Notes under the pieces: model-generated
Told to the model about the DNA's origin: nothing
Seen by the model: only the letters and a program-made list of their open reading frames with translations
Databases searched by the model: none
Program-made: the position numbers and the translations under genes
In this document: in pieces, positions 20,197 through 60,649 of the stretch
Layout of the letters: each line of letters starts with the position of its first letter
Position numbering within the stretch: the first letter of the stretch is position 1
Source of the DNA: an uncultured virus (IMG/VR IMGVR_UViG_3300010391_000110)
Taxonomy: Duplodnaviria > Heunggongvirae > Uroviricota > Caudoviricetes
IMG/VR virus record: IMGVR_UViG_3300010391_000110
DNA: 64,000 bases
Strand: one strand, 5' to 3'

Positions 20197-20340
20197 CGAA
20201 CCCTCCTGTTTCCCCAATCGGCCTGCAAAATCTGCTTCTCGCCTATGCTGCGCTCCGCACTGGGGAGTCCGGAGCGCAGGAAGGAGAGAAGGCGACGCCC
20301 GGCACGGTGCATGCCGGGCGCGCCTGTCCGATGGGTAGAC

Positions 20341-35914: not shown

Positions 35915-36274
35915 ATGGAACACATCGACGCCAAGGTATTTGCGCTCATCACACTCGGCACGGCCGTCGCGGTGAGCATCCTGAAGTCGTTCCTGAAGCG
36001 ATTCGTGGACGGGAAGGAGGAGGCCTGGTCCCAGCTCCTTCCGATTGTCTTCACCGTGGCCGCGAAGTGCGGCGGCCTCTTCCAGTCGACGAGCTGGGTG
36101 GACGCGCTCCTCTTCGCGGTCGGCGGCGGCCTGGGCGCGAACATCATCCACGACAAGCTCGGAAGCATCCTCAAGATGGTCAAAGGCCTGCTGGGCGGCG
36201 GCGCCGGCCAGGGCAGTCCCGACGGGGCCGTGAAGCCGCCCGATCCTCCGGCTCCGGGGCCTCCTGCGCAATGA
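35915..36274 (+). CDS. Holin-like three-TM protein
   Basis: SD AGGAGG; three hydrophobic helices. Confidence 0.55.
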   Translation: MEHIDAKVFALITLGTAVAVSILKSFLKRFVDGKEEAWSQLLPIVFTVAAKCGGLFQSTSWVDALLFAVGGGLGANIIHDKLGSILKMVKGLLGGGAGQGSPDGAVKPPDPPAPGPPAQ

Positions 36275-36338
36275 CGGACATCCGGATTCCAGGTCCCGCC
36301 TCCAAGACGTGCCGTGCCGGGAGGGGGCACGTTTGAGC

Positions 36339-36368
36339 GTGACATCCTGGCCTCGTCCATCCTATAAT
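36339..36368 (+). promoter_or_regulatory. Putative sigma70 promoter GTGACA-N18-TATAAT
   Basis: Perfect -10 box in a GC-rich intergenic gap. Confidence 0.55.
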
Positions 36369-36400
36369 CCCATGGACTGGATCGGAAGACGGGAGGCGTC

Positions 36401-36649
36401 ATGCGCACGTTCCTGACGGCAGTGGTCCTGGCGCTGGCGACCGGCTGCTGTGCGACGGGCGCCCGCGAGTCGGCCTACCACGACGGCGTCAAGCAGTACG
36501 CCGTCGAAAGCGGCCTGCTCGACGAATACGAGAAGTACATCGACGCCGACCCGGTCCTGAAGCCCCAGACGAAGGTGATCCGGAAGGGCACCGTCAAGGG
36601 CTTCCGGGCGCTCATCACGGAAGAGGAAAAGTCCCTCAAGAAGGACTAG
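36401..36649 (+). CDS. Predicted lipoprotein
   Basis: MRTFLTAVVLALATGC signal peptide/lipobox. Confidence 0.65.
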   Translation: MRTFLTAVVLALATGCCATGARESAYHDGVKQYAVESGLLDEYEKYIDADPVLKPQTKVIRKGTVKGFRALITEEEKSLKKD

Positions 36650-36661
36650 AGGCAGAAGACC

Positions 36662-37015
36662 ATGCCCGACGCACCGGATCTCTCGGAGGAGGCGAAGAAG
36701 ATCGCCCAGGCGGCCTTCTCCGTGTTCAAGGACTCCCTGACCGGGTTCGTCGAGCGCCAGGACGTCGACGAGTTCGCCCGGGAGCGCGTCGAGCAGTACA
36801 CCCAGGAGTGGTGGGCCGCCAAGACCGCCACAACGGACGAGGACCGCGCCGAGCACGAGCAGAACCTCAAGCACCTCGTAGCCCAGGCCAGGGGCGAGGC
36901 CCGGCGGCTCCAGATTGCCATCTCCCAGGAGGCCGAGGACACCGTGGGCCGGGTCCTGGAAACCGTCGGCGGAATGATCCTGAAAGTGCTTCCGGCCGTC
37001 ATCGCCGCCTTGTAG
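36662..37015 (+). CDS. Helical protein with hydrophobic C-terminus
   Basis: 117-aa ORF. Confidence 0.6.
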   Translation: MPDAPDLSEEAKKIAQAAFSVFKDSLTGFVERQDVDEFARERVEQYTQEWWAAKTATTDEDRAEHEQNLKHLVAQARGEARRLQIAISQEAEDTVGRVLETVGGMILKVLPAVIAAL

Positions 37016-37025
37016 GAGAAGAGAC

Positions 37026-37448
37026 GTGAATCTTGGAGCCGTGAGACTCGCGTCGCCCGGCCTGCGGCAGGGCGTGCGCATGGGCCAGGCCAAATCCGCC
37101 CTGCTCGTGATGGTCACGCTCGACGGCGGGGCCGCCATGGACGTGCCTCTCGAGATCCTCTACTCGGACGGGTCGAACGTCCAGGGGAAGACGGGCGCCG
37201 CGGGCTTCTTCGAAGCCCCTTACGGCCCGACCCAGTACGGGCCGGCCATCGTCCGGATCTCGCCGCCCCCGGGTGTCGAGGACATCGGGGAAGGCACCGC
37301 GCAGCCGGCCGAACTCACCGCCGCCGGCGTCAAGGTCTCGTTCGCCCTCACGTCGCGTCCGGCCGCCGACAGCGCCAAGCGCCCAGACAGCACGACGGTC
37401 GCGCTCGTGACCGCCGCGCTCCTGGTGGCCGTGGGGATCAGCCTCTAG
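37026..37448 (+). CDS. Leader-bearing, C-terminally TM-anchored protein
   Basis: MNLGAVRLASPGLRQGVRMGQ...; TM end. Confidence 0.7.
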   Translation: MNLGAVRLASPGLRQGVRMGQAKSALLVMVTLDGGAAMDVPLEILYSDGSNVQGKTGAAGFFEAPYGPTQYGPAIVRISPPPGVEDIGEGTAQPAELTAAGVKVSFALTSRPAADSAKRPDSTTVALVTAALLVAVGISL

Positions 37449-37458
37449 GACCACGACG

Positions 37459-38100
37459 ATGCAAAACCACAACGACAAGCCGGAAAGCCTGCGCGCGTGG
37501 TACACCCACTCCACGCGCAAGGCGGTTCGCAGCCTCATCGCCGCCACCGTCGTGTCGTCGCTGGCGATGGTCGCGTTCTGGTTCGTCGTCCCGGCGGATC
37601 TCACCGCGCGGATCCAGGTGGCCAACGGCGCCTTCACGATCCCCATCTTCGGGGGCCTCTGGATCCTGGCCTTCATGTGCATCTGGCTCATCCCGATGCG
37701 GGAGGTCAGCTTCCGGGGGCAGGAATCGCTCGACCGGACGGAGGAGCGCCTGAAGAGCGCCCTCGATGACCGGCTTCTCCCGGCGATCGAATTGTGGACC
37801 CGGATCGGAACGAAAGTCGAGACGGAACTCCTCCCGAAGCTCGAGCGCGTGGTCGACGACGCTCAGAAGGCCGTCAAGTCGTTTCATGACCGGGTTGTTC
37901 CAGCCCATGAGAGCGTGCGCAGGACCGAGAACCTGGTCCAGGCACAACTTGGGATCCTCACCTCCGAGGTGGCCGCCGCGTCTAAGTCCGTCCGGGGCTT
38001 CTTCGGCCCCCAAGGGGCTCCCGCGGACGTCGGGGAGGCGATCCAACTCATGAGCCGTCCTGGGAAGAACGGAAGCGGCCTTCCGGTCAGGAGAATGTAA
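37459..38100 (+). CDS. Two-TM coiled-coil protein
   Basis: Two N-terminal TM helices followed by heptads. Confidence 0.65.
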   Translation: MQNHNDKPESLRAWYTHSTRKAVRSLIAATVVSSLAMVAFWFVVPADLTARIQVANGAFTIPIFGGLWILAFMCIWLIPMREVSFRGQESLDRTEERLKSALDDRLLPAIELWTRIGTKVETELLPKLERVVDDAQKAVKSFHDRVVPAHESVRRTENLVQAQLGILTSEVAAASKSVRGFFGPQGAPADVGEAIQLMSRPGKNGSGLPVRRM

Positions 38101-38103
38101 CGT

Positions 38104-38547
38104 ATGTCCCACACGATCTTCTCGGCATCGCCGTTCCGCGGCGGCTACAGCCATGCGGTCGTCCCGTTCCGCCTGGGCGGTGGGCGGGTGGATGGTGTAC
38201 TGGACTTCCTCGGCCTCGACGAAGACGACGCCGAAGGCCTTCTCAAGCCGCTCGACGAGGCGATCGCCGCGGTCCCCGTCGGCGCCCTGAAAAGCGACTT
38301 CGAAAAGCGCCGCGATGGGTGCATGGCGGAGAAAATCATATCCAAGTACAAGTGCCTGTACGACCTCTTCCAGGACGTCAAGAGCGCCATCAAGGACGGC
38401 GACCAGGCGCCACCCACGGGCGGGACTCCGACAGGAGGGGCGAAGACGACGCCTCCGAGCGAGTTCCCCTGGGTGCCTGTCGGAATCGCCGCTGGCGTCG
38501 GAGTCGCCGCGCTGCTATACTTCGCGTTCAAGAAGAAGAGTGCATAG
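38104..38547 (+). CDS. Leader-bearing, C-terminally TM-anchored protein
   Basis: ...PFRLGG leader; FPWVPVGIAAGVGVAALLYFAFKKK end. Confidence 0.7.
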   Translation: MSHTIFSASPFRGGYSHAVVPFRLGGGRVDGVLDFLGLDEDDAEGLLKPLDEAIAAVPVGALKSDFEKRRDGCMAEKIISKYKCLYDLFQDVKSAIKDGDQAPPTGGTPTGGAKTTPPSEFPWVPVGIAAGVGVAALLYFAFKKKSA

Positions 38548-38562
38548 ATAGGAGAACCGGCC

Positions 38563-39132
38563 ATGCCTTATGCTGCGAGCTTCCGTCCGGCGGCGCACGG
38601 CGCCTTCCTCCCTCAGGTGCGTCTGGCGGGATCCATGACGCGCCAGGTGGCCTACCCGGTCCAGCCGTTCCTGGGCCAGGTCCGCATGGGCGTCACCACC
38701 GAGGAGTGGTACAAGCGGGCGAGCGCCTCGCTCGAGCGCTACCGCTTCCTCAAGAGCCAGATCCAGTCGGTCAACAACGACGTCGGCCGCCAGAGCCTGA
38801 CGATGTGGCTCGGCACCATCGCCGTCGACGAGTCGCCGGAGTACCGCTACGCCACGGTGCTCAGCGACTTCAACGACGCCAAGAAGACCGGCCTGACGGT
38901 CTACGACATCGACCGGCGCACGGGCCGCATCGAGAAGCTCGAGAACATCAACGACCAGTTCAACCAGAAGATCGAGGCCGCCCGGATCAGCTACGGCACC
39001 CGCGACGTGCCCGCCACGACGCCTCCGGGCGGAACCCCGGGCGGGCAGCAGCCGCCGACCAAGACCCCGGACCTGACGGTTCCGCTCCTGGTCGCCGGCG
39101 CCGCGGTCGCCGTGGCCATCATCTTCGGGTAG
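38563..39132 (+). CDS. Leader-bearing, C-terminally TM-anchored protein
   Basis: SFRPAA...PQVRLAG...FLGQVRMG leader; TM end. Confidence 0.75.
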   Translation: MPYAASFRPAAHGAFLPQVRLAGSMTRQVAYPVQPFLGQVRMGVTTEEWYKRASASLERYRFLKSQIQSVNNDVGRQSLTMWLGTIAVDESPEYRYATVLSDFNDAKKTGLTVYDIDRRTGRIEKLENINDQFNQKIEAARISYGTRDVPATTPPGGTPGGQQPPTKTPDLTVPLLVAGAAVAVAIIFG

Positions 39133-39145
39133 GGGAGGTCGCCAG

Positions 39146-39520
39146 ATGCAACTCGCCTACCATCCGGCGCCGCCTGGGCGCCGCGCTGCATGGAAGCCGG
39201 CCGCCATGCGCGGGCCGTTCCAACTCAGCCAGACAAACTCCGAAGAGTTCGGCATCGGGGACGTGCTCATGCCGATCATACGCCTCGGTGCCGCGGGCGC
39301 CGTCGCATACGTGGGGATGCACGCGGCCCTGAACCAGAAGGGGATGCTTTCGGCCCTGGGTTGGGTCGCGTGGGCCGCCGGATTCTTCTCGGCCTTCTCC
39401 ACGCTCGGGGGGCTCTTCATGATGGGGGCGACCCCGAAGTCCTCCCTGGAGCCCGTGGTCGTGTCCGCGCCGACTCCGGCCGCGCCGACGACGGTGCCTT
39501 CGGGGCCCATGGAATTCTGA
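39146..39520 (+). CDS. Leader-bearing two-TM protein
   Basis: AWKPAA...FQLSQ leader; two TM helices. Confidence 0.7.
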   Translation: MQLAYHPAPPGRRAAWKPAAMRGPFQLSQTNSEEFGIGDVLMPIIRLGAAGAVAYVGMHAALNQKGMLSALGWVAWAAGFFSAFSTLGGLFMMGATPKSSLEPVVVSAPTPAAPTTVPSGPMEF

Positions 39521-39598
39521 TCTTCGCACAGTCCAGGGTTGAGCGGTGCGGTGGCGTCACGGTGGCTGGAAGGTTGAATGAAGACGGAGAGCACGACG

Positions 39599-39742
39599 AT
39601 GCCGAAGATCAAAGGGCGCAATTTCCGGCGCGTGTCCCAGAACAAGGACGGCAGCTGCCCGAAGGGCGCGCGGAAGTTCCGCCGCGGGAAGACCCAGACC
39701 ACGGGTTGCTACGCGCCCATGGCCAAGGCCAAGAAGCGGTAG
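39599..39742 (+). CDS. 47-aa highly basic peptide, candidate DNA-condensing core protein (not in ORF track)
   Basis: MPKIKGRNFRRVSQNKDGSCPKGARKFRRGKTQTTGCYAPMAKAKKR; SD GGAG. Confidence 0.65.
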   Translation: MPKIKGRNFRRVSQNKDGSCPKGARKFRRGKTQTTGCYAPMAKAKKR

Positions 39743-39758
39743 AGCAAACCCGATCCCA

Positions 39759-41960
39759 ATGAACGGTGTCGCGCCTGGCGGCGCCGTGCCGGTCGTCAAC
39801 TTCCTCCCGGCGCGTGGCGATGCTCGGCGCGGCGCATGGCTGAGAAATTCGGGGGTCCCCGTGGGACTCCCCCTCCAGCCGCGCTTCGGACTCGGACAGT
39901 TTGCCTGGACCCCGCCTCCGACCGGAGACGCGACCGCCACCAAGTGCTACCACTGCGGGCTGCAGGGGTATCGCCTCATGACCCCGACGATGGCTGCCAT
40001 GGTCCCGGGCGGCTGCACGGAGGTGGATGCGACGCTTTGCGCACCGGCCACTGCGCCTGCGCCCGCTCCGACGGGAGGAACTCCCTGGCCGGGGACCGCT
40101 CCCGCGCAGGCCCACTGGACGGACGGGCCGACCCGGATCAACGTCCTCGTGTTCGAACCCGGCGAACTCAAGCCGTACACGGCCGCCGTCCCGGTCATCA
40201 TCTCGGTCTACAAGTACACGGCCATAGGCGCGGCCGTCACGGAAGTGACCCGCGGCACGACCGGCCCCGACGGCCGGTTCACCTGGCAGGGGTCCGCCCC
40301 GAGCGCGAACAAGGACTATCATTTCCGCGTGCAGGTGCAGGCGCCGGGCAACGCGAAGACGCTCGACGTGGCAGCCCGGCTCGCCCACATCATGGGAGCT
40401 GGGGGCGGCGTCGTATCCGAGAGTTCCCTCACCGTCGTGGCCTGTCCGTCCGGAACCGACTCGCTCGTCTGCGCGGTCGCGCAGGCGCAACTCGACTGGA
40501 AGCAGATCTACGACTCCCAGATCGTGGCCTGGGGGAATTCCACGCAGGCCCAGGGGTTCGCGGCGGACATGGCGCATGCGAACGTGCCGCTCACCCACCC
40601 CGCTCTCAAGGCGAGGTGGGACGTGTACAGCTGGTGGCTGGGCGACCGCGGGATCCCGCCCAAGGATTGGCCTCATCTCGACCGTGAGTTCACCCGGACG
40701 TGGAAACTCTTCGCCACGATCCCGTTCCCGCGCTGGCCGGAGATCGAGGACCTCTTCACGAACTGCTGCAAGGGCGTCCCCATCGGGCAGGGGAAGGACA
40801 ATGCGCGCTACGGGGTCGCCTCCCCGAGACTCTACTCGAAGACCTGGTCGGACTACTTCCCCAGGACCGACAAGCAGATCCTCAAGGATATGGCCGCGGC
40901 TTACCTGCTGGCTCTCGGGTCGATCTTCAGGTGCATGGAGCACAAGATCAGGCGGAAGGCTGCGGATACGGAGCGAACCATCAAGAAAATGGCGCTCATC
41001 TCCTACGCCATAGTGCTCGTCAACCTGCCGTGGCTCATCGCCGCCGGGCCCGGAGGCATCGCCGCGCTTGCGACCGAGACCTGGGACTTCGTCCAGATTA
41101 TGCAGGGAGGGTCAGCCCTCGGATACGGCACAAGCGCCGCGATCGCCGCGGCCGCGATGGCGGCCGGGGATCCAGCTCTGGTCGTGGCCGCGCTCGAGCC
41201 GATCATCAACGAGATCCTCGGCACGGCGGACCCAGCTGTGGCCGCGGCCATCAAGGCGATCTATCCGCAGGTCGTCGGCCTGGCGATGTCCGCCGTGGGG
41301 TCCATCGCCGGCGCTTCCGTGCAGCAGGGGTCGAACGTCATCGCCAACGGCGCGTCGAGTTTCCTCGATCTGTCGACGATCGCGTCGGCCATTGCGGTCA
41401 TGGCCGTCAAAGCGATGGCTGCGGTCCCGAAGATGATCGCCGCCGAGAAGATCGAGCAGTTCCATGACGCCGCTAACAGTATGAACCTCGCCGCGGTCGA
41501 CGTGCTCAACTACGTGGCCGGCGAGGAAGTCTCGCCGATCTTCAAGCCGTTCCTCGTGTGGGTGGTCGAGGCGATGGGACTTCTCGACCTGTTCAGTCAG
41601 GCTATCGACCAGTTCCTCGACCAGTTCCAGCAGTCCCTCGCGGTGGGGGACCAGCAGGGCGGAGGCGTGACGGTCGTGCCCGAAGAGGGCGGAGGCGGCC
41701 CGGCCATCGCTCCCACGGACCCGGACGGCGTGCCGACCGACGTGAACGGAAATCCGCTTCCCGGGGGCGAGGCTCCGCTCACCCCTCCGTCCGGCGGCGG
41801 GCAGGTGCCTGGGTCACCGTCCCCGGACATGCCTGACATGCCGATGGAAACGACCACGAGCGGCATCGGCGGGGTGGGCGGGACAAGCCCCGTGACTGCG
41901 ATCGGCGTGGGCGGAGGTGCAGCAGCGCTTCTCCTTGTGGTGGGGAGTGTGCTATCATGA
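39759..41960 (+). CDS. Large leader-bearing membrane protein
   Basis: ...QPRFGLGQ leader; Ala-rich hydrophobic core; C-terminal TM. Confidence 0.75.
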   Translation: MNGVAPGGAVPVVNFLPARGDARRGAWLRNSGVPVGLPLQPRFGLGQFAWTPPPTGDATATKCYHCGLQGYRLMTPTMAAMVPGGCTEVDATLCAPATAPAPAPTGGTPWPGTAPAQAHWTDGPTRINVLVFEPGELKPYTAAVPVIISVYKYTAIGAAVTEVTRGTTGPDGRFTWQGSAPSANKDYHFRVQVQAPGNAKTLDVAARLAHIMGAGGGVVSESSLTVVACPSGTDSLVCAVAQAQLDWKQIYDSQIVAWGNSTQAQGFAADMAHANVPLTHPALKARWDVYSWWLGDRGIPPKDWPHLDREFTRTWKLFATIPFPRWPEIEDLFTNCCKGVPIGQGKDNARYGVASPRLYSKTWSDYFPRTDKQILKDMAAAYLLALGSIFRCMEHKIRRKAADTERTIKKMALISYAIVLVNLPWLIAAGPGGIAALATETWDFVQIMQGGSALGYGTSAAIAAAAMAAGDPALVVAALEPIINEILGTADPAVAAAIKAIYPQVVGLAMSAVGSIAGASVQQGSNVIANGASSFLDLSTIASAIAVMAVKAMAAVPKMIAAEKIEQFHDAANSMNLAAVDVLNYVAGEEVSPIFKPFLVWVVEAMGLLDLFSQAIDQFLDQFQQSLAVGDQQGGGVTVVPEEGGGGPAIAPTDPDGVPTDVNGNPLPGGEAPLTPPSGGGQVPGSPSPDMPDMPMETTTSGIGGVGGTSPVTAIGVGGGAAALLLVVGSVLS

Positions 41961-41979
41961 TCCGTCAGGAGGAGATCCC

Positions 41980-42462
41980 ATGAAAGCAGATGCCTTCAAG
42001 CCGCAGGGCAAGCAGGTCACCGTCCGGAGCGTCGGAGGGGCGCCCGACTCGATGATCGGGCAGCATTTCCGGATGGGCGGCGCGCAGCAGATGCAGGCGC
42101 CTCCGATCGACGTCAGGCAGGGCGGGGATCGCTTCGTGCCCGTCGGAGGGAACGGAGCCCTGCCGCTCGCGACCTAGCCCGCCATTCAGCAGCAGGCGGT
42201 GCCGCAGCGCCAGCAGCCGCGTGCCTTCCAGCCGGCCGCGCAGCAGCAGTCCGTCCAGGAGCAACTCGCATCCAGGCAGCAACTCGCCGCGCAGCAGCAA
42301 CAGCAGCAGCTCGGCGCGGCCCGGCTCGACGACGGAGGCGAGACCTTCGCCGTCTACATCGACGGGGTCGGCCCGGACGGGGCGCCGTTCTCGACCGACG
42401 CCATCGCGGTGCGCTTCCCGGCGGGCTCGCAGCTCTCCGGGATGAGGTACGAGAAGGTCTGA
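41980..42462 (+). CDS. Gln-rich protein interrupted by an in-frame TAG at 42175-42177 (readthrough, nonsense mutation or two genes)
   Basis: SD AGGAGGAG at ATG 41980; ORFs 41917..42177 and 42199..42462 share a frame. Confidence 0.5.
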
Positions 42463-42464
42463 CC

Positions 42465-42830
42465 GTGAACTTCACCATGATCCCCGTCGCGCCGACTCTG
42501 GACGCGGCGCAGCAGGCCAGGCTGGACGGCGTCGTCCAGGCGGCGCGAGAGCTCATCTCCTTCTCGGACGCGGACCCGGCCCTGGCGGCCCGCGCCGGCG
42601 TCGAGGTGCTCGCGCTCGAGGCGAAGATGGCGCTTCAGGGATCAAGGCTCGGGGGAGGATCGATCGACGCCTACGAGCGCCTGGACGGCATCGTCGCGCT
42701 GGCGGGAAACCGGATCGGGGAATGCGTGGCGGCCATGGACCGCGAGATGTCCGGCAGTCCCGTCGAGCGCCTGAGCAGGATCATCGGCCTGGCCGGAGGG
42801 GCCATCGGGGTCATCCGCAGCATCTTTTAA
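42465..42830 (+). CDS. Hypothetical protein with hydrophobic C-terminus
   Basis: 121-aa ORF. Confidence 0.6.
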   Translation: MNFTMIPVAPTLDAAQQARLDGVVQAARELISFSDADPALAARAGVEVLALEAKMALQGSRLGGGSIDAYERLDGIVALAGNRIGECVAAMDREMSGSPVERLSRIIGLAGGAIGVIRSIF

Positions 42831-42847
42831 CGTCGAGAGGAAAGCTC

Positions 42848-43660
42848 ATGAACCATTCGCTGGGTTGAGGGATGAAGGTGAACCTCCGTTCGTCGAACGG
42901 AGTCGCGCCCCGTCAGGCCGCCCCGGAAGAGGAGCATCCGCGCTCGCTCGGCTGAGGGGGCGGCGGCGCGTTCGTCGCGCCTCCTCCGTCGGAGGAGAGA
43001 CAGTCCCTCCCGCCCGGCTACACCGCGGCCATCCGCGGGAGCGTGCCGGCGCAGCAGGTCGCCCGGCCGGTCTCCGGACGTCCCGGGGGTTTTCAGATCG
43101 GATCGCCCGGCCCGCGCTTCGTCCCGACCGCGCACGAGAAGGGGTTCCGTCCACTGCTCATGGGCGGCGTCCTCGGGCAGGTGCGGCTCGCCCAGCCCGG
43201 CCAGCAGTCCAGGCCGATCCTGGGGCAGGCCACGACGACGGTGACGCCCACGACGGAACCCGTCGAGTCGCAGCCGGTCGGGCAGCCCAAGAAACTCCCC
43301 GCCACCGAGGCGCAGGCGGGTCAGGGTCAGGAATCCAACTGGCGCCGGAAGGCCTGGGGGCATTTCCGCCGCATGGATGCCGCCGAGATGGCGGTCTACC
43401 TGCATGGCATCGAAGAGCGCATGGACCAGGTCAAGGTCCCCCGCGGCATCGTCGAGCAGATCCGGAAGCGCCTGGAGAGCTTCGCCACGACGGCGAAGAC
43501 CGACGCCGAGGCGATCACCATCGACGAACAGGAGGTCGCGGCGCTCGACAACGCCATCATGTTCCTCGAACAGACCGAGGCGGCGCAGGGGCCGAATCTC
43601 GGCGCCATCGCGGCGGCGGTGGCGGGTCTCGGCCTTCTGACGGCGGTGCTGGTGGCGTGA
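42848..43660 (+). CDS. TM-anchored protein with two in-frame TGA codons (candidate double selenoprotein)
   Basis: SD GAGG 7 nt before ATG 42848; MNHSLG*GMKV...PRSLG*GGGG... continues in frame into ORF 43043..43660. Confidence 0.7.
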
Positions 43661-43995
43661 TGATGCGGATCGAGAAGCCGTCCGGATTCTCTCCCGCCCG
43701 CCAGTTCGCGCTCCGTCCGGTTGTGCCCGCGCCCCGTCCGGTTGTGCCCGCGCCCGCGCCACGCCGGCTGGAGGCCTCGCACCCCGTCCTCGCCCAGGCC
43801 GTCCTGGCCGATCCGGAGCTTCGCGAGATCGGGGGGTTCCTGTCCGAGGCCCGGGAGCAGCTCGCCGCGATCGAGCGCAGCTACGTGAACCTGGCCATCG
43901 CCCTCGGGCAGGCCGAGGCCGACCTGGCCGTGGCACAGGCCCGAGCGACCGTCGAGATGTACGAGGCCGCCTACGTCCGGGCGGGAGGAGCGTAA
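43660..43995 (+). CDS. Leader-bearing coiled-coil protein
   Basis: TGATG overlap; 21-bp tandem duplication encoding RPVVPAP twice. Confidence 0.65.
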   Translation: MMRIEKPSGFSPARQFALRPVVPAPRPVVPAPAPRRLEASHPVLAQAVLADPELREIGGFLSEAREQLAAIERSYVNLAIALGQAEADLAVAQARATVEMYEAAYVRAGGA

Positions 43996-43997
43996 CC

Positions 43998-44291
43998 GTG
44001 AAGATCCGCGTCACCGGCTGAGAACTGTCCGGACTCGTCAGGCCCGTCGGGCCCGTCACGATCGAGAAGACCAAGGTGGTCCAGAAGGACGTCCTCGTCG
44101 CCAAACTCTCCGGGGCGGCGCAGGGTACGATTGCTGTTGTGCGCGACGCCAAGCACAACTATCATGTGGTGGCTCCGAAGGAGCTCGGAGGAACGCGGGC
44201 CGTTCCCGCGGATTCCCTCACCGACTGTCTGCATCAGGCGGTTTACGAGATATCGGAAGCGAAGAAGAGCCGAGGAGGTCGGAAGCGATGA
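43998..44291 (+). CDS. Small protein with in-frame TGA at codon 8 (candidate selenoprotein)
   Basis: SD GGAGGAG, GTG 43998; MKIRVTG*ELSG... is in frame with ORF 44076..44291. Confidence 0.7.
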
Positions 44292-44758
44292 ACGCAACGG
44301 GATTCCCGGTCCAGTTCCCCACGGCCCCGTCGATGCCTCAGGTGCGGCTGGCGCAGCCGTGGGCCCCGGCGCGGCGTCAGCAGCCCCTGGCCGTCCGCGC
44401 GACGCGCCCCGTGGTTCCGACCCTGGGCGGCTCCAGGGTGGGGCAGACCACCGCGCAGCTGTGGGCTCGCGGGTCGGACATCAGCTTCTCGATCCTGACG
44501 GGCGTCGCCGCCATCGTGAGCGGCATCGCGCTCGTCGTGAACTTCGGGAAGGGCGACCCCGCCATTCCGCCGCGCATCGTGCCCGGCATGCCGCCCGTCC
44601 CAGGACGCTCGGCGACCTCCGGGAAGCCGATGTGGTACGTGATCGGCGGGCTGATCTCGGTCCTGGGGGCCGCGAACATCTGGTCGAGCATCAACCGGGC
44701 CTCGGCGATCCAGGCGGCATCGGCGCCGCCGGCCGCTGCGCCGCCGTCGGGGGGCTAG
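44288..44758 (+). CDS. Leader-bearing two-TM protein
   Basis: MPQVRLAQPWAPA...SRVGQ leader. Confidence 0.7.
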   Translation: MNATGFPVQFPTAPSMPQVRLAQPWAPARRQQPLAVRATRPVVPTLGGSRVGQTTAQLWARGSDISFSILTGVAAIVSGIALVVNFGKGDPAIPPRIVPGMPPVPGRSATSGKPMWYVIGGLISVLGAANIWSSINRASAIQAASAPPAAAPPSGG

Positions 44759-44793
44759 GCCTTTCGGACAGACAGACGAGGAGGACTCAAGCA

Positions 44794-45138
44794 ATGCAAG
44801 CCATCTCCTTTCCGGCCACCTCGATGCCCGGCCGGTGGCGGCCGGACCACCAGGTCGACGCCGCCCTGCACGGGACGTGGACGCCCGCGCAGCGCCAGGC
44901 GTGGGCGGTCGCCCGGAGCCACGCGCTCCAGGGGCGCCTCTCCCAGGCTTCGACCGCGGCGGTCGAGACGCCCACCGAGCTCATGATCTCGGTGTCGGCG
45001 GCCTTGGCCGCGCTCTTCGGAGGCCTGTCGCTGGCCTTCGGCGCGCCGAGGGGCGCACCCACGCTCACGTGGGTGGGCATCCTGGCGGCCACGGTCGGCG
45101 GCTTGAAGCTCCTGCAGACGGGCTCCAAGCTCGCGTAG
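44794..45138 (+). CDS. Leader-bearing two-TM protein
   Basis: SD GAGGAGG; WTPA...GRLSQ leader. Confidence 0.65.
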   Translation: MQAISFPATSMPGRWRPDHQVDAALHGTWTPAQRQAWAVARSHALQGRLSQASTAAVETPTELMISVSAALAALFGGLSLAFGAPRGAPTLTWVGILAATVGGLKLLQTGSKLA

Positions 45139-45146
45139 GAGGCGGC

Positions 45147-45458
45147 GTGAAAGTGGACAACCCTGCGGTGATGCTCTCGGCCCGTCCGCCCATGGCGAGG
45201 CCGTGGAAGCCCGCTCCGTTCCGGCAGGGACCGTCTCCGTTCAGCAGGAGCCTGGCCGGGGCGTCCGTAGGGCAGCCGTCGAAAGGGACGCTCTTCGACG
45301 ACCCCTTCGTGGCCCTTCTCCTGAGCGGCGCTTCGACGGTCCTTGCGGCCATCAGCACGGTCAAGCTGGAGGGCGCCGCGCGCATCCTGGCGTGGGCGGT
45401 CATGATCGGGGCCGGCACGCAGACGCTCGTCAGCGGGGTGCGCTATCTCCGGTCCTAG
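45147..45458 (+). CDS. Leader-bearing two-TM protein
   Basis: SD AGGAGG; WKPAPF...SVGQ leader. Confidence 0.65.
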   Translation: MKVDNPAVMLSARPPMARPWKPAPFRQGPSPFSRSLAGASVGQPSKGTLFDDPFVALLLSGASTVLAAISTVKLEGAARILAWAVMIGAGTQTLVSGVRYLRS

Positions 45459-45470
45459 TCGGGAGCTGCT

Positions 45471-45722
45471 ATGAAGATGCGGTTCAGCGAACTGGCGCCG
45501 GGCTCCTGTTTCACGCGTGGCAGCCGCGGTGGCGTCCGGAAGAAGCTGCCGGACGGACGGGTTGTGGGCGTGTCGGATGTGGGAAAACCAAGGACTCGAG
45601 GCATGAAGGGCGACCCGGAAGTGAACGACGTCTCGTGCCCCCTCAACCTGCTCGGCGTCGGACTCAGGAAAAATCCGGCCGCCGTGATCGAGATCGGATC
45701 CGTCGTTCGCCGATGCCGGTGA
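45471..45722 (+). CDS. Small basic protein
   Basis: 83 aa, R/K-rich. Confidence 0.55.
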   Translation: MKMRFSELAPGSCFTRGSRGGVRKKLPDGRVVGVSDVGKPRTRGMKGDPEVNDVSCPLNLLGVGLRKNPAAVIEIGSVVRRCR

Positions 45723-45732
45723 GAGGTGGCGA

Positions 45733-46146
45733 ATGGCCGTCGAACTGATCGAACTCGGAGCCCGGCGCGGGAAGATCCTGCGTAAAGGGTACACGCGGAA
45801 GGGCGGGAAGCGCGTCAAGCAGACGTACGTGAAAGACACTGGCAAGCCCGGCAAGACGCCCAAGTCGAAACGCGTGCTCCCGCCCATCAAGCCGGGCACC
45901 CTAGCCTGCGAAGGCGACGCCTGGAGGCACGGCGACGCGCCCGAGAAGCGGATGCGGGTCCTGCGGTGCATCATCGTCAGCCGGCACGTCCCGTGCGTGA
46001 CAGTCATCCGGGACCTGAACGTCGTGGCCAACTATTCGGAGCGGACGTCCCCGGCCACACACAAGGCCGCTCGAGAAGATATGGAACGCCTCCGGATGCA
46101 GGGCGTCTGTCTCAGGAGCAGATCGAACGGACAGGCGGCTCCTTGA
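45733..46146 (+). CDS. Basic protein resembling an NCLDV family (DUF5771-like)
   Basis: RKGYTRK...KDTGKPGK...LPPIKPGTL...VIRDLNVVANYSERTSP; similarity recalled from memory. Confidence 0.5.
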   Translation: MAVELIELGARRGKILRKGYTRKGGKRVKQTYVKDTGKPGKTPKSKRVLPPIKPGTLACEGDAWRHGDAPEKRMRVLRCIIVSRHVPCVTVIRDLNVVANYSERTSPATHKAAREDMERLRMQGVCLRSRSNGQAAP

Positions 46147-46179
46147 TCCGCCGCTGAACCGGAGAAGGAGGCGTGGTCC

Positions 46180-47130
46180 TTGTCGCTGTCGATGCTCGCC
46201 CAGACCCAGAGGTCAGGCCTCGCCCCCGCAGGATCCGGCCGCACGGCCGTCCTGTCCCGGGCCGAAGCCGAGATGATGGTCCGCATCGTCAGGGCGGTCT
46301 CTGAATTCGCCACAGGCTTCCCGGTCGAGTTCCACGCGTACTGCCCGGTTGCCCGTTGGGAGCCCATCCTGGCGGCCGCCGCCCAGGCGGTCGGGCAGAT
46401 CGAGACCCAGCTTGCGTCGGCCGCCAAGACCATCGTCGTTCCGCTGGACCTCCTCATGTCCATCGTCGACCTCGAGGAGTGCGTGTCCGGCGCGCGTGAC
46501 GCGCGGCTTTCGAACGGGAAGGTGGCCCTCATCATCGCGACCGTCGGCGTTATCGGGCAGAGTTTTTTCGGGCTGACCTATCTGGCGACCCCGGCGTACA
46601 TCATCGCGCTGGCGATCTCGCTTGGTCGGCCGCTCCTCCAGCTCGTCAAAGGGGAGCCCGCGGCGCCCTTCGTCCCGGACACGGTTCCCGGCGCCAGGAT
46701 CACCGGGCTTTCCGGAGGCGGCTGCTCGCCGGCGCCGTCGCTCGGGCATCACACGAGCAAGGCCAAGGTGATCGAGCGCGTGATCGTCTCCCCGGAACGC
46801 CGCCTCCAGAGATTCCACTGGGGGAGCGTCACGCCGATGACCCTCTCCGGACAGGCCGGGACGTGCCTGGTCAAGGGCGAGTGGCGCGTCCGGGTCGAGG
46901 GCTGGGGCGACGACCGGATCACCCTCACCGACGGGTGGGAGTTCGCGCAGCGCGACCAGTGCTTCGACGCCAGGAATGAGATCTCCGTGCGCGAACCCTG
47001 CGGGGTTCCCGCGCGGGATACGGGATTCGGCGATATTCAGGTATACTCAGGGCATGAGAAGAGCATCTGGGCCGAGTACGTGGGCCCGTTCACCGAAGGC
47101 ACCTGCCGCGTGGCGGGGCCCTTCGGCTGA
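46180..47130 (+). CDS. Membrane protein with Cys-rich C-terminal domain; may extend through TGA to 47244
   Basis: SD AAGGAGG, TTG start; two TM helices. Confidence 0.65.
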   Translation: MSLSMLAQTQRSGLAPAGSGRTAVLSRAEAEMMVRIVRAVSEFATGFPVEFHAYCPVARWEPILAAAAQAVGQIETQLASAAKTIVVPLDLLMSIVDLEECVSGARDARLSNGKVALIIATVGVIGQSFFGLTYLATPAYIIALAISLGRPLLQLVKGEPAAPFVPDTVPGARITGLSGGGCSPAPSLGHHTSKAKVIERVIVSPERRLQRFHWGSVTPMTLSGQAGTCLVKGEWRVRVEGWGDDRITLTDGWEFAQRDQCFDARNEISVREPCGVPARDTGFGDIQVYSGHEKSIWAEYVGPFTEGTCRVAGPFG

Positions 47131-47240
47131 ACCGGCGACGCCCAGGAGCATGCCGTCATGGACGGCGGCATGAGCCTCCCCGGAGGGGACGGCGCGTATA
47201 TCCTGTACGACGCGGACGGCAACGTCGTCGAGGAGTCGCC

Positions 47241-47759
47241 ATGAAACGGAAGGACGCCCTAGCCGACAGGCTGATCGCCGGGACATCCGACGCGGCGCTG
47301 CGCCTCGCGTGGTGGCCCCGGCACAGCGCCATGGTCGGACTCTACATCGACAGCATGGACCAGGCCCAGCCCTTCAAGGGCCGCGACGTCATGTTCCACG
47401 CGGCCAAGTACTGGGACGCCCTCGTCCTGGACGCTTCCGGGCTGATGAGCGAGCACACGGCGCTCGAGATCGCCCTCGTCGATGCCGTGGCGGTCAAGGA
47501 CACGTCCGCCGTGGACCGCGTGAGCGAGCTGCTGAGCGCCAACATCCAGCAGCAGCAGGCCATGTACGTCGCCAGGATCCCGGAGTTCCCGGCCGGCCGA
47601 TTCTCGGAACTCATACGCGAACATGCGCGCCTCTTCTTCGAGACGCTGGCCAGCAAGACGGCCGGGGATGTCAGGAAGCGCTTGCTGTGCGATGCCAAAA
47701 GAGGGCACAATGCCGTATCTCTCGGGGCGTTTATGACCGAATGGGTGACGGGGAACTGA
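47241..47759 (+). CDS. Helical hypothetical protein
   Basis: SD GAGGAG; 172 aa. Confidence 0.65.
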   Translation: MKRKDALADRLIAGTSDAALRLAWWPRHSAMVGLYIDSMDQAQPFKGRDVMFHAAKYWDALVLDASGLMSEHTALEIALVDAVAVKDTSAVDRVSELLSANIQQQQAMYVARIPEFPAGRFSELIREHARLFFETLASKTAGDVRKRLLCDAKRGHNAVSLGAFMTEWVTGN

Positions 47760-48568
47760 TGGAGCACAACGCCGCGTGCCCGCCGAATGCGCCGGTCGCC
47801 CTCGCGGACGGCAAGCTCATCATGCCGGACGACCAGGTGACGCTGGCCGATCTCTGCGAGCTCATCCCGCTCATCCTGGAGACCATGGCCGCAGCGCAGG
47901 GCGGCGGAGGAGGGGGCGCGGGCCTTCTCGTGCCCGGCGCCCAGGTCCCGATCGCCGGCGCGCCCATGCTCGGACCTTTCGGGACGCCGGCGCTGCCTTC
48001 GAACACGAGCCCGTTCGGTCCCCCGAAAGGGAGCGCCATCGCCGCTTCCGGGGGCGGCGGAGGTTTCGGGGGCGGGGGCGGTGGAGGCGGCCGCGGCGCA
48101 CGCGGCCTGCAGGGGCCTGCCGGGCCGGCGGGCGCGCCCGGACCCGGCACGATCGTGCCCATGATCAAAACCGACGGGAACTTCACGGTCGCGTCCGTTT
48201 CTCCGTTCCTTCCCATCCCGGGCACCCAGAAGAAGATCACGCTCCTGGAGGCCGGGCCCGCCATCTTCCTGATTCAGGGGGTCTTCGGAGGCAACTCGAT
48301 AGCGGGCGTGTCGAACGGTCAGATCGGGCTCCGGGTGGACGGCACCGATTACCCGCTCACGGCGAACCTGATCCACACGTTCGTGGGTGGCGTCGGCGAG
48401 TTCCTCGCGTCGGCGACCGCGAACTTTCCGATCATGCTGGCCGCCGGAGAGCATGACGTGGAGCTCATCGTGCGCGGAGACTCGTCGCTCGGAGCGCCGA
48501 CCGGACTGCCCGTCGTGGTCCAGGCGACGCCGGCGATCCCGCTCGCGCTCACGATCATCCACAAGTAG
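47759..48568 (+). CDS. Protein with short collagen-like (GXY) stalk and C-terminal beta domain, candidate short spike
   Basis: TGATG overlap; GARGLQGPAGPAGAPGPG. Confidence 0.65.
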   Translation: MEHNAACPPNAPVALADGKLIMPDDQVTLADLCELIPLILETMAAAQGGGGGGAGLLVPGAQVPIAGAPMLGPFGTPALPSNTSPFGPPKGSAIAASGGGGGFGGGGGGGGRGARGLQGPAGPAGAPGPGTIVPMIKTDGNFTVASVSPFLPIPGTQKKITLLEAGPAIFLIQGVFGGNSIAGVSNGQIGLRVDGTDYPLTANLIHTFVGGVGEFLASATANFPIMLAAGEHDVELIVRGDSSLGAPTGLPVVVQATPAIPLALTIIHK

Positions 48569-56508: not shown

Positions 56509-56516
56509 GGGGACGC

Positions 56517-57191: not shown

Positions 57192-57195
57192 GCCG

Positions 57196-57915: not shown

Positions 57916-57928
57916 GACGGAGGAAGGC

Positions 57929-60617: not shown

Positions 60618-60649
60618 CGGACCTCGAGCATAGCCGGAATAGCCTGAAG

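What the first reader, a model, noticed from the sequence alone, without database searches (positions are those of the whole stretch)
42848..42997. Twice-repeated SLG-(TGA)-G motif, each with its own C-GUC-G hairpin
The frame from ATG 42848 reads MNHSLG*GMKVNLRSSNGVAPRQAAPEEEHPRSLG*GGGG and joins ORF 43043..43660. Both stops sit in the same peptide context encoded by different synonymous codons (tcg ctg ggt TGA ggg; tcg ctc ggc TGA ggg). Downstream hairpins are CTCCGTTC-GTC-GAACGGAG (42884-42902) and CTCCTCC-GTC-GGAGGAG (42981-42997). Two independent nonsense errors in the same motif are improbable. If the LG motif is a cleavage site, processing would expose an N-terminal Sec (inference).
Basis: partly seen in the sequence, partly recalled or inferred. 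Interest (0 to 1): 0.88.

Follow-up and report, generated by a model that had tools for sequence, protein, structure and literature searches.

The report
Conserved double-UGA recoding cassette, dark gene
A gene of a virus-like element keeps two in-frame UGA "stop" codons, each between glycine codons and followed by an RNA hairpin, in every relative whose DNA could be read, so ribosomes must pass both stops, possibly by inserting selenocysteine.

Summary
ATG 42848 has a good Shine-Dalgarno site and lies 17 nt after the upstream gene. TGA 42866 and TGA 42953 are in frame with ORF 43043-43660.

This is not an error or a pseudogene. All 7 related metagenome loci that reach this region (6 distinct sequences) have the same layout. 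It reads M-x-x-[S/R]-[L/M]-G-TGA-G, then a hairpin, then [S/A]-[L/M]-G-TGA-G(3-6), then a hairpin, then the PPGY motif. Both stops are TGA in all 7 distinct sequences (14 of 14), while the gene's real stop varies (TGA, TAG, TAA). Spacings vary but always stay in frame.

Close relatives differ between the stops mostly at third codon positions. Several relatives have no start codon after stop 1. The window has none between stop 2 and GTG 43043, although that stretch encodes a conserved peptide. I therefore read 42848-43660 as one ORF with two programmed UGA recoding sites (about 0.85).

The mechanism is open:
- **Selenocysteine (about 0.4):** 13 of 14 sites fit the published bacterial SECIS model. 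Against it, 0 of 46 relatives has a Cys form, the sites lie in a predicted disordered segment, and the hosts are unknown.
- **Near-cognate readthrough:** about 0.25.
- **Peptidyl-tRNA-Gly "stop-hop":** about 0.13.

The protein's function is unknown.

The parts
42465..42830 (+). Upstream gene (121 aa, ends ...IRSIF, stop TAA). Its homologue directly precedes the recoded gene in the relatives.
   Evidence: ORF; the same C-terminal motif (...GIVK[ST][IV]F) sits just upstream in L002, L003, L004/L005, L007 and L008.
42835..42840 (+). Shine-Dalgarno-like GAGAGG, 7 nt before ATG 42848
   Evidence: a purine-rich SD-like stretch lies 5-9 nt before the corresponding ATG in all 7 distinct sequences (my reading of the printed upstream 40 nt).
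42848..43660 (+). Proposed single gene of 270 codons including two UGA, ending at TGA 43658-43660
   Evidence: The frame is kept through both TGAs in 7 of 7 loci that reach the region, although spacings vary.
42863..42871 (+). Recoding site 1: GGT TGA GGG (Gly-UGA-Gly), preceded by Ser-Leu
   Evidence: GGN-TGA-GGN in 7 of 7 distinct sequences; the residue at -2 is always L or M.
42884..42902 (+). Hairpin 1: 8-bp stem, GUC loop, starting 15 nt after UGA-1. It contains the octamer TCCGTTCG, invariant in all relatives.
42869..42952 (+). Inter-stop segment of 28 codons, translated in frame
   Evidence: differences by codon position are [1,2,7] (L004 vs L007) and [1,1,7] (L004 vs L008). Segment lengths of 72, 78, 81 and 87 nt are all multiples of 3. 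L004, L007 and L008 have no start codon before the Met codon that lies two codons ahead of TGA-2.
42950..42967 (+). Recoding site 2: GGC TGA followed by four Gly codons, preceded by Ser-Leu
   Evidence: GGN-TGA followed by 3-6 Gly codons in 7 of 7 distinct sequences.
42981..42997 (+). Hairpin 2: 7-bp stem, GUC loop, starting 25 nt after UGA-2. It is built from the codons of the conserved peptide PPP-S-EE.
42977..43042 (+). Conserved N-terminal coding stretch (APPPSEE...LPPGYT..AIRGS) upstream of the called start. It holds no in-frame ATG, GTG or TTG.
   Evidence: (GC3 0.90 for 42956-43042)
43043..43045 (+). GTG that ORF and gene callers take as the start (the database protein P0001 begins here)
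43316..43585 (+). Confidently folded helical domain (residues 157-246), the conserved core of the family (AWG..KK.DA.EL...IPxGIV.QI)
   Evidence: pLDDT above 90. No fold match.
43598..43654 (+). C-terminal hydrophobic helix (residues 251-269), a probable membrane anchor
43660..43995 (+). Downstream gene (111 aa). Its ATG overlaps the TGA stop by 1 nt. A similar protein start follows the family gene in L001.

Best explanation
The gene runs from ATG 42848 to TGA 43660 as one 270-codon reading frame. Ribosomes start at the SD-preceded ATG right after the upstream gene and must pass two programmed UGA codons, at codons 7 and 36. The product is a protein with a long disordered N-terminal region, a small helical domain and a C-terminal membrane helix. 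That the two UGAs are conserved, in-frame recoding sites is well shown by comparison (about 0.85). As the mechanism I commit, as a plurality choice, to selenocysteine insertion. In that reading each UGA is followed 9-27 nt later by its own in-ORF stem-loop acting as a bacterial SECIS for the host's SelB/Sec-tRNA, giving two Sec residues in the repeated motif [S/A/R]-[L/M]-G-U-G. The Sec step is inference. The confidence given below (0.4) refers to the Sec mechanism.
For: Conservation:
- Of the 8 related loci fetched, 7 reach the leader; L006 starts inside the gene, and L004 equals L005 over the leader.
- All 7 have both in-frame stops at the same alignment columns.
- Both stops are TGA in all 7 distinct sequences including the window (14 of 14). 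The gene's true stop is TGA, TAG, TAG, TAA, TAA, TAA in the 6 of these 7 that reach it, and TAA again in L005.
- TGA is otherwise a real stop. It ends 16 of 42 confident ORFs in the window, it ends this gene where the relatives' proteins end, and it ends genes in L001, L005 and L007.

Translation through the stops:
- ATG-to-TGA1 is 18 or 30 nt, and TGA1-to-TGA2 is 72, 78, 81 or 87 nt.
- Differences between the stops fall mainly on third codon positions in close pairs.
- Between TGA1 and the Met codon two codons ahead of TGA2, L004, L007 and L008 have no ATG, GTG or TTG. Between TGA2 and 43043 the window has none. That stretch nevertheless encodes motifs shared with relatives.

SECIS-like features:
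- The bSECIS model comes from passages of review PMC13188914: loop 3-9 nt, stem 4-16 bp, G in the first two loop positions, 16-37 nt from UGA to the loop, energy <= -7.5 kcal/mol.
- 13 of 14 sites meet the model. Among 10,152 control positions in the window, 12.0 % do.
- Given the peptide, the native hairpin is matched or beaten by synonymous-codon shuffles (500 each). Site 1: 3, 14, 89, 35, 14, 15, 16. Site 2: 3, 229, 87, 80, 32, 21, 22.
- The hairpin arms keep the codons CGT, TCG and CCT unchanged, although synonymous sites are otherwise saturated. Invariant codons occur in 3 of 13 leader columns of 4/6-fold codon families and in 0 of 17 in the rest of the gene.
- At site 1 two clades build the hairpin in different registers from the same invariant octamer.
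Against: - No Cys form: 0 of 46 related proteins extends through the motifs with a sense codon, and none contains any Cys. Passages of PMC12013277 and PMC13188914 say that nearly all or all known selenoproteins have Cys homologues.
- The sites lie in a region AlphaFold2 leaves unstructured (pLDDT about 45-57 for residues 1-156). The protein shows no sign of being an oxidoreductase: no Pfam, NCBIfam or PHROG hit and no fold match.
- Gly codons flank the UGA at 14 of 14 sites on each side. The Sec model does not need this.
- Loop sequences vary (GUC, GGC, GUUC, GGU, GGA, CGUGNN). UGA-to-loop spacing differs by up to 13 nt between the two sites of one mRNA.
- SECIS-like hairpins are common in GC-rich DNA (12 % background; a passage in PMC12013277).
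- No Rfam family matches.
- Hosts are unknown. No tRNA gene was found in the window or in the 7 loci scanned (L006 was not scanned). No Sec-machinery family appeared in the Pfam scans.
Confidence: 0.4

Rival explanations
1. Sec-independent programmed readthrough. A fraction of ribosomes reads each UGA with a near-cognate tRNA (tRNA-Trp is the classical one, by recall). The [L/M]-Gly nascent end, the UGA-G context and the downstream hairpin would help by slowing RF2. The two leaky stops in series then act as an expression throttle, or as a sensor of termination capacity, for a membrane protein needed in small amounts or late.
For: All the evidence for in-frame passage applies. The strict use of UGA, which by recall is the leakiest stop and is read by RF2 only, fits this reading. 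The conserved last two residues before the stop (L/M-G at 14 of 14 sites) suit an effect of the nascent chain on termination (recalled E. coli literature, not read here). This reading needs no Cys homologues, no structured site and no Sec-competent host.
Against: To my knowledge no hairpin-stimulated readthrough is established in bacteria (recall; the search listed none). The base after UGA is G in 14 of 14 sites, which by recall is not the leakiest context in E. coli. No relative has replaced either stop by a sense codon. An expression throttle could be had more simply with a weak ribosome-binding site, so the elaborate conserved cassette is not explained. The flanking Gly codons are not explained either.
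Confidence: 0.25
2. A natural 'stop-hop'. Peptidyl-tRNA-Gly, paired to the GGN codon in the P site with UGA in the A site, lets go and re-pairs with the GGN codon just past the stop, or at site 2 with one codon of the Gly run. Nine nucleotides then give one glycine. The hairpin sits at the ribosome's leading edge and would act like the forward-slippage barrier of T4 gene 60.
For: Gly codons flank the UGA on both sides at 14 of 14 sites, with synonymous variation, so it is the amino acid or tRNA class that is kept. Site 2 offers 3-6 consecutive Gly codons as landing sites. Site 1 uses the weak-pairing GGT as take-off codon in 5 of 7 sequences, despite GC3 near 0.9. Passages of the 2016 review PMC5009743 say that synthetic stop-hops, with matched codons flanking a stop, work in E. 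coli. Passages of the gene 60 preprint 10.1101/2022.08.31.505936 describe Gly take-off and landing codons, a stop right after take-off, and a downstream barrier stem-loop.
Against: Take-off and landing codons can be read by the same tRNA-Gly at only 7 of 14 sites. At site 1 the pair is GGY then GGR in 5 of 7. In gene 60 relatives the pair is always readable by one tRNA. Those elements mostly use UAG, whereas here UGA is invariant. By recall, synthetic stop-hops run at about 1 %. A hairpin 9-16 nt downstream would have to be partly opened for the mRNA to move forward. The hop does not explain the conserved L/M at position -2.
Confidence: 0.13
3. Three separate cistrons. The UGAs are real stops of two short regulatory upstream ORFs, and the main protein starts after UGA-2 at an ATG or GTG near the PP..EE hairpin, or at GTG 43043 in the window. 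The Gly run would serve as the Shine-Dalgarno region, and the hairpins would couple translation of the leader to opening of the start site.
For: 6 of 7 distinct sequences have an ATG or GTG between UGA-2 and the EE motif, and gene callers start 46 of 46 related proteins at or after that point. GGNGG runs and GGAGG arms are Shine-Dalgarno-like, and UGA-GG gives GAGG at all 14 sites.
Against: The window has no ATG, GTG or TTG for the 29 codons after UGA-2, although they encode conserved motifs with GC3 0.90. In L004, L007 and L008 the middle ORF has no start codon before the Met codon two codons ahead of TGA-2, yet it evolves like coding sequence. All spacings keep one frame, which separate cistrons do not need. 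The position of the putative start varies.
Confidence: 0.1
4. An assembly or sequencing error, or a decaying pseudogene.
For: The window does carry one nonsense variant nearby. TAG at 42175 reads C at its first base in contigs of 4 runs, and it splits a gene that is continuous in L001, L005 and L007.
Against: Both TGAs recur at the same columns in 7 of 7 loci from other assemblies and in the X1 contig at depth 24.
Confidence: 0.01

Closest known systems
Bacterial selenoprotein genes with an in-ORF SECIS (archetype E. coli fdhF; bSECIS consensus model as given in review PMC13188914)
   Same: A conserved in-frame UGA is followed within the ORF by a stem-loop with a small G-started apical loop 16-37 nt downstream. 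13 of 14 sites meet the model. Gene callers truncate the gene.
   Different: Two sites lie in tandem within 36 codons of the start. There is no Cys-containing homologue (0 of 46). The sites lie in a predicted disordered, Gly-rich segment of a non-enzyme-like membrane protein. Flanking Gly codons are invariant. The carrier is a virus-like element with unknown hosts. The fdhF details (G23/U24, 11-nt spacer) are recalled, not read here.
T4 gene 60 translational bypass, and synthetic 'stop-hops' in E. coli
   Same: A Gly codon lies in the P site with a stop codon next to it. A Gly codon is available for re-pairing, there is a stem-loop downstream, and GAG/GGA-type SD-like triplets lie nearby.
   Different: The gap would be 3 nt rather than 50. 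The take-off and landing wobble bases match in only 7 of 14 sites. The stop is UGA, not UAG. No long nascent-peptide signal is possible at site 1, where only 6-10 residues have been made. The 2016 review says no natural stop-hop was known then.
Programmed UGA readthrough in phage Qbeta (A1 protein) and in alphaviruses
   Same: A leaky UGA with the reading frame continuing in frame.
   Different: In those cases the stop ends a functional short product and readthrough adds a C-terminal extension (recall; abstract and passages of PMC8310308). Here the stops are at codons 7 and 36, so termination yields only tiny peptides, and there are two stops in series, each with a hairpin.
Viral selenoproteins (glutathione peroxidase genes of molluscum contagiosum and fowlpox viruses)
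   Same: Virus-borne genes with a UGA redefined as Sec. The fowlpox SECIS lies in the coding sequence (passages of PMC8310308).
   Different: Those are host-derived enzymes of eukaryotic viruses with known Cys and Sec homologues. This is a family with no known relatives in a prokaryote-type, phage-like element.
Phages with genome-wide stop-codon reassignment (TGA=Trp or TAG=Gln; recalled literature, not read here)
   Same: In-frame stops in a late-strand gene that break gene calls.
   Different: Here TGA is a normal stop elsewhere. Only two fixed positions in one gene are affected. No suppressor tRNA gene was found in the window or in the 7 loci scanned.

Membership tests
Bacterial selenoprotein gene (SelB/SECIS-dependent UGA decoding) | In-frame UGA conserved among homologues | tested here: met
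   TGA at both columns in 7 of 7 distinct sequences (14 of 14), while the terminal stop varies.
Bacterial selenoprotein gene (SelB/SECIS-dependent UGA decoding) | Stem-loop fitting the bSECIS model: loop 3-9 nt, stem 4-16 bp, G in the first two loop nt, 16-37 nt from UGA, <= -7.5 kcal/mol | tested here: met
   13 of 14 sites fit; L003 site 2 scores -6.7. Background is 12.0 % of 10,152 positions. The model is taken from PMC13188914.
Bacterial selenoprotein gene (SelB/SECIS-dependent UGA decoding) | Homologues with Cys aligned to the UGA | tested here: not met
   0 of 46 related proteins and 0 of 7 loci have a Cys form, and no Cys occurs anywhere in the family. DNA was available for only 7 loci.
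Bacterial selenoprotein gene (SelB/SECIS-dependent UGA decoding) | Host encodes selA, selB, selC (tRNA-Sec) and selD | not testable with these tools
   No genome is held for the window. The records behind the loci are not held. No tRNA gene was found in the window or in the 7 loci scanned.
Bacterial selenoprotein gene (SelB/SECIS-dependent UGA decoding) | Selenium found in the protein | not testable with these tools
   Needs 75Se labelling or mass spectrometry.
Translational bypass / stop-hop | Take-off and landing codons for the same amino acid flank the skipped stop | tested here: met
   GGN-TGA-GGN at 14 of 14 sites.
Translational bypass / stop-hop | Take-off and landing codons readable by one tRNA (always so in gene 60 relatives) | tested here: inconclusive
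   7 of 14 sites match. At site 1 the pair is mostly GGY then GGR. Pairing in the P site is said to tolerate latitude.
Translational bypass / stop-hop | Product lacks the residues of the skipped triplets | not testable with these tools
   Needs mass spectrometry of the product.
Genome-wide TGA reassignment (codes 4 and 25; recoded phages) | TGA is used as a sense codon throughout and not as a stop | tested here: not met
   TGA ends 16 of 42 confident ORFs and ends this gene at the homologous end. None of the 15 other in-frame TGAs examined shows Gly-TGA-Gly with an open coding frame.
Programmed near-cognate readthrough | Frame open and under coding constraint beyond the stop | tested here: met
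Programmed near-cognate readthrough | A standard amino acid is inserted at the stop in a fraction of products | not testable with these tools
   Needs a reporter assay and mass spectrometry.

The most novel reading that the evidence does not exclude
The two Gly-UGA-Gly sites are natural, selected 'stop-hops': peptidyl-tRNA-Gly jumps over the UGA onto the next Gly codon, helped by the downstream hairpin. This would be the first utilised example of a mechanism so far known only from synthetic constructs, and here it would be used twice in series as a gate on expression of a membrane protein of a virus-like element. The other novel reading, a phage-type selenoprotein family with two Sec residues and no Cys homologues, is my best explanation and is scored there.
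Probability: 0.13. Interest if true: 0.9.

Novelty: new variant of a known kind. Interest (0 to 1): 0.8.

Why it matters
Whichever mechanism holds, the cassette is compact (about 150 nt) and easy to test.

- **If it is Sec:** this would be, as far as my searches show, the first selenoprotein family of a phage-like element. Two selenoproteome papers do not mention phage, and a recoding review names only two poxviruses. The family would also lack any Cys form and would carry Sec in a disordered Gly-rich segment, which breaks the rule used to find selenoproteins.
- **If it is not Sec:** it would be a rare case of programmed UGA bypass in a bacterial-type system, with a cis-acting hairpin and a defined peptide and codon context. 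It might even be the natural stop-hop that the 2016 recoding review said was still unknown.

In practice, gene callers cut every family member at the second UGA, so all 46 related database proteins found here lack the segment upstream of the second UGA.

Tried and rejected
**Searches for relatives that found nothing**
- With the 4-sequence alignment A1: IMG/VR, JGI metagenome contigs and GTDB genomes.
- With the wider alignment A3: IMG/VR.
- Megablast of 36000-48000 and tblastn of the read-through protein against GenBank phages.
- The conserved site-1 DNA pattern had 0 hits in IMG/VR. It had 2 hits in GTDB genomes, and both are chance matches with no family similarity.

**RNA and structure**
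- No Rfam match up to E = 10 other than 3 chance-level rows.
- RNAalifold did not recover hairpin 1, because the two clades pair in different registers. Covariation counts are uninformative: the stems are either identical or re-registered.

**Function**
- No Pfam, PHROG or NCBIfam hit for the family or its neighbours.
- The ESM Atlas gave no usable hit.
- Foldseek against BFVD and PDB gave nothing at E <= 0.001.

**Expression and hosts**
- No RNA holder was listed among the sequencing runs.
- Runs X2-X4 do not cover 42788-42935.
- tRNA-Sec and tRNA searches of the larger records behind L001, L005 and L007 were not possible, because those records are not held.
- The earlier-findings look-ups returned nothing on this family.

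**Readings considered and dropped**
- -1 and +1 frameshift pairs: the alternative frame has low GC3.
- One long hop from UGA-1 past UGA-2: the gap keeps frame and evolves like coding sequence.
- A lipobox or signal-peptide reading of S-L-G-U: only 6 residues precede it.
- Operator palindromes on DNA: the arm spacing differs, 19 vs 17 bp.
Full report
**1. Setting.**
The window is 62-71 % G+C and has no tRNA gene. No whole genome is held for it.

The minus-strand genes between about 480 and 24,600 have replication-type hits. These are a D5-type primase-helicase, AAA_24, two helicases, an RNase T-type exonuclease, HNH, Mom and GP88. The primase finds only distant phage and archaeal-virus relatives, all below 60 % identity and about 25-32 % in the 15 rows listed.

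The plus-strand block from about 24,600 to 56,000 holds the finding and is almost entirely dark. Of the 34 ORFs scanned, only the sugar-enzyme and methyltransferase genes near the 3' end have real Pfam or PHROG matches. I call the element virus-like. I did not identify capsid or terminase genes.

**2. The observation.**
- The upstream gene stops at TAA 42828-42830. GAGAGG follows, and ATG 42848 lies 7 nt after it. This is the usual junction in this operon, since other same-frame junctions in the block have an SD and an ATG a few codons after the stop.
- The two hairpins are the only GTC triloops in 64 kb (2 of 16 triloop hairpins).
- The 15-nt repeat by itself is not unusual for this region (5 repeat families in 501 nt).
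- The local fold is only marginally better than shuffles (z = -1.9).
- TGA is an ordinary stop in the window: TAG 20, TGA 16 and TAA 6 among 42 confident ORFs.
- Third-position G+C in the frame of the ORF is 0.79 between the TGAs and 0.90 between TGA-2 and GTG 43043.

**3. The called start is wrong.**
The called protein starts at GTG 43043. It has 3 relatives in the 90 % cluster database and 22 in the 50 % representative library. A profile search added more, giving 46 relatives in all.
- In the phmmer search with the read-through translation, matches begin at query residues 44-55 for the closer relatives. Nothing matches residues 1-43.
- The window's codons 44-65 carry motifs that open the relatives' proteins: PPPxEE, [L/I/V]PPGY[T/A] and IRG.
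- So the coding sequence extends upstream of 43043. Yet between TGA-2 and 43043 there is no in-frame ATG, GTG or TTG.

**4. The decisive result.**
A search of metagenome contigs with a three-protein alignment returned 8 loci from other assemblies. Seven reach the 5' region. L006 begins inside the gene, and L004 and L005 are identical over the leader.

Translating the frame of the homologue upstream shows the same layout in all 7:
- an SD-preceded ATG 13-21 nt after the homologous upstream gene;
- 6 codons (10 in L003) ending in [S/R]-[L/M]-G;
- TGA, then Gly, then x-[Q/K]-V-x-[L/I]-R-S and a variable Pro/Glu/Gln-rich stretch;
- P-x-[S/A]-[L/M]-G, then TGA, then 3-6 Gly codons;
- PP(P)-x(1-2)-EE(E) and finally [I/V/L]-P-[P/S]-G-[Y/M]-[T/A].

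The supporting counts are as follows.
- Both stops are TGA in all 7 distinct sequences including the window (14 of 14).
- Each TGA has a Gly codon on both sides, with synonymous variation in those Gly codons.
- The terminal stop of the same gene is TGA, TAG, TAG, TAA, TAA, TAA in the 6 distinct sequences that reach it. Stop identity therefore drifts where it is free to, and it is held at the two internal sites.
- TGA is a real stop elsewhere in L001, L005 and L007.
- None of 15 other in-frame TGAs that I examined in the window shows Gly-TGA-Gly with a continuing coding frame.
- The motif is not enriched in the window: 10 matches against 20 expected.

**5. Evidence that ribosomes traverse the stops in frame.**
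- The distance from ATG to TGA-1 is 18 or 30 nt. The distance from TGA-1 to TGA-2 is 72, 78, 81 or 87 nt. Indels downstream are whole codons.
- Between the stops, differences by codon position are [1,2,7] for L004 vs L007 (5 synonymous, 3 not) and [1,1,7] for L004 vs L008. Distant pairs are saturated, with position 2 changing least.
- After TGA-1, L004, L007 and L008 have no ATG, GTG or TTG until the Met codon two codons before TGA-2. After TGA-2 the window has none for 29 codons.
- An error is excluded for the window. The X1 contig (44,014 nt, depth 24) agrees at both TGAs, although X1 may be the source sample.

**6. The hairpins are selected as RNA.**
Every site has a stem-loop 9-27 nt after the UGA.
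- *Site 1.* The window and L001-L003 pair an 8- or 7-bp stem around a GUC or GGC loop. L004, L007 and L008 use the same invariant octamer TCCGTTCG differently, in a 9-10-bp stem around a GUUC loop that starts 9-12 nt after the UGA.
- *Site 2.* The stem is made of the Pro and Glu codons, with loops GUC, GGU or CGUGNN. It is weak in L001, where another hairpin scores best.
- *Fit to the published model.* 13 of 14 sites meet the bSECIS model (for the model). Among 10,152 control positions in the window, 12.0 % do, and 5.1 % reach -10 kcal/mol or lower.
- *Synonymous-codon shuffles, 500 per site.* The native energy is reached as listed below.

| Site | window | L001 | L002 | L003 | L004 | L007 | L008 |
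|---|---|---|---|---|---|---|---|
| 1 | 3 | 14 | 89 | 35 | 14 | 15 | 16 |
| 2 | 3 | 229 | 87 | 80 | 32 | 21 | 22 |

  Site 1 is well supported. Site 2 is supported in some lineages and not in L001.
- *Codon invariance.* I took the columns with an invariant residue from a 4- or 6-fold codon family. The codon is also invariant in 3 of 13 leader columns (CGT, TCG, CCT, all in hairpin arms) and in 0 of 17 columns in the rest of the gene.
- These lineages are related, so the counts are not independent events.

**7. What the protein is.**
AlphaFold2 was run on a 33-row alignment with Cys as a stand-in at the UGAs. It leaves residues 1-156 unstructured (block means about 43-60). It folds residues 157-246 as a helical domain with pLDDT above 90 and predicts a terminal helix at 251-269. 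The family has no Pfam, PHROG or NCBIfam match, no usable Atlas hit and no fold match.

Synteny is kept in L005 and L007: a roughly 734-aa hydrophobic protein, a split or whole small gene, a roughly 140-aa protein, then the recoded gene. Function is therefore unknown. I read it as a tail-anchored membrane protein of the element's late block. This is an inference.

**8. Mechanism.**
*Shown:* two conserved, UGA-specific, in-frame sites, each with a selected hairpin and the context [L/M]-Gly-UGA-Gly.
*Inferred:* how the UGA is passed.

- **Selenocysteine (0.4).** It explains the strict UGA and the hairpins at model distances. It also gives a reason to keep a costly cassette, because the residue itself would be the point. 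Against it:
  - 0 of 46 relatives has a Cys form, and there is no Cys anywhere in the family. Current literature says essentially all selenoproteins have Cys homologues (passages).
  - The location is disordered.
  - The loops are variable, and the spacing differs by up to 13 nt between the two sites of one mRNA.
  - The invariant Gly flanks are unexplained.
  - The hosts are unknown.
- **Near-cognate readthrough (0.25).** It needs none of the missing items. But it has no bacterial precedent with a hairpin that I know of, and it explains neither the Gly flanks nor why a weak start site would not serve.
- **Stop-hop by peptidyl-tRNA-Gly (0.13).** It uniquely explains Gly-UGA-Gly and the Gly run. 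It has synthetic precedent, and the 2016 review says no natural case was known (passages). However, the wobble match holds at only 7 of 14 sites, unlike gene 60 relatives (passages), and UGA invariance is not expected.
- **Three separate cistrons (0.1).** This conflicts with the missing start codons and the kept frame.
- **Error or pseudogene (0.01).** Excluded by the relatives.

**9. Novelty.**
I found no report of a phage selenoprotein.
- Full-text searches listed none; I saw listings only.
- The BSepDB paper and the 2026 selenoproteome review contain no occurrence of "phage" (term searches).
- The 2021 recoding review names only two poxvirus glutathione peroxidases (passages).

Supplements of these papers were not opened and could list further families. 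The family is absent from GenBank phages, from IMG/VR and from GTDB genomes by the searches made.

**10. Verdict.**
Selenocysteine is the leading reading but remains unproven. The cleavage idea has no support.

Noticed in passing
window 42175-42177 (gene 41896-42462): An in-frame TAG splits a gene that is one continuous ORF in L001, L005 and L007. Contigs of four runs (X1-X4) read C at 42175, giving CAG (Gln). The window therefore carries a nonsense variant or an assembly error in the gene two positions upstream of the finding.
   Followed up: partly
window 24590-56000, + strand: About 30 kb of tightly packed genes have essentially no Pfam, PHROG or NCBIfam match, and no recognisable capsid, portal or terminase. 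Several encode hydrophobic proteins, including a 733-aa one at 39759-41960. The local gene order is conserved in L005 (53.5-kb contig) and L007 (156-kb contig). This is a dark structural or membrane module of an undescribed element.
   Followed up: partly
window 42889-42896 and the homologous place in L001-L008: The octamer TCCGTTCG, which includes the rare Arg codon CGT, is invariant in all 7 distinct sequences. It serves as part of a stem arm in one clade, and as part arm and part loop in the other. This hints that the sequence itself, and not only the pairing, is recognised.
   Followed up: partly
window 42954-42957 / 42884-42888 and 42959-42987: Alternative pairings are possible. The GAGG formed by UGA-GG can pair with the CCUC of hairpin 1's 5' arm (4 pairs, kept in 5-7 of 7 sequences). 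The Gly-codon run after UGA-2 can pair with the Pro codons of hairpin 2 or of the PPGY motif. The leader could switch between folds.
   Followed up: partly
window 56322-64000: A cluster of sugar-modifying genes: two or three family-2 glycosyltransferases, a GT-D-like protein, an NAD-dependent epimerase/dehydratase and an FkbM-type methyltransferase. It lies at the 3' end of the window and is either cargo of the element or flanking host DNA.
   Followed up: no
window 7599-8420 and 17725-20340, - strand: A Mom-family protein (DNA modification) and an 872-aa D5/PriCT-type primase-helicase. The nearest phage matches of the primase are only about 25-32 % identical in the 15 rows listed, and they include spindle-shaped archaeal viruses.
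   Followed up: partly
window about 43710-43760 (start of gene 43660-43995): A tandem duplication of about 21 nt gives the repeated peptide RPVVPAP twice.
   Followed up: no
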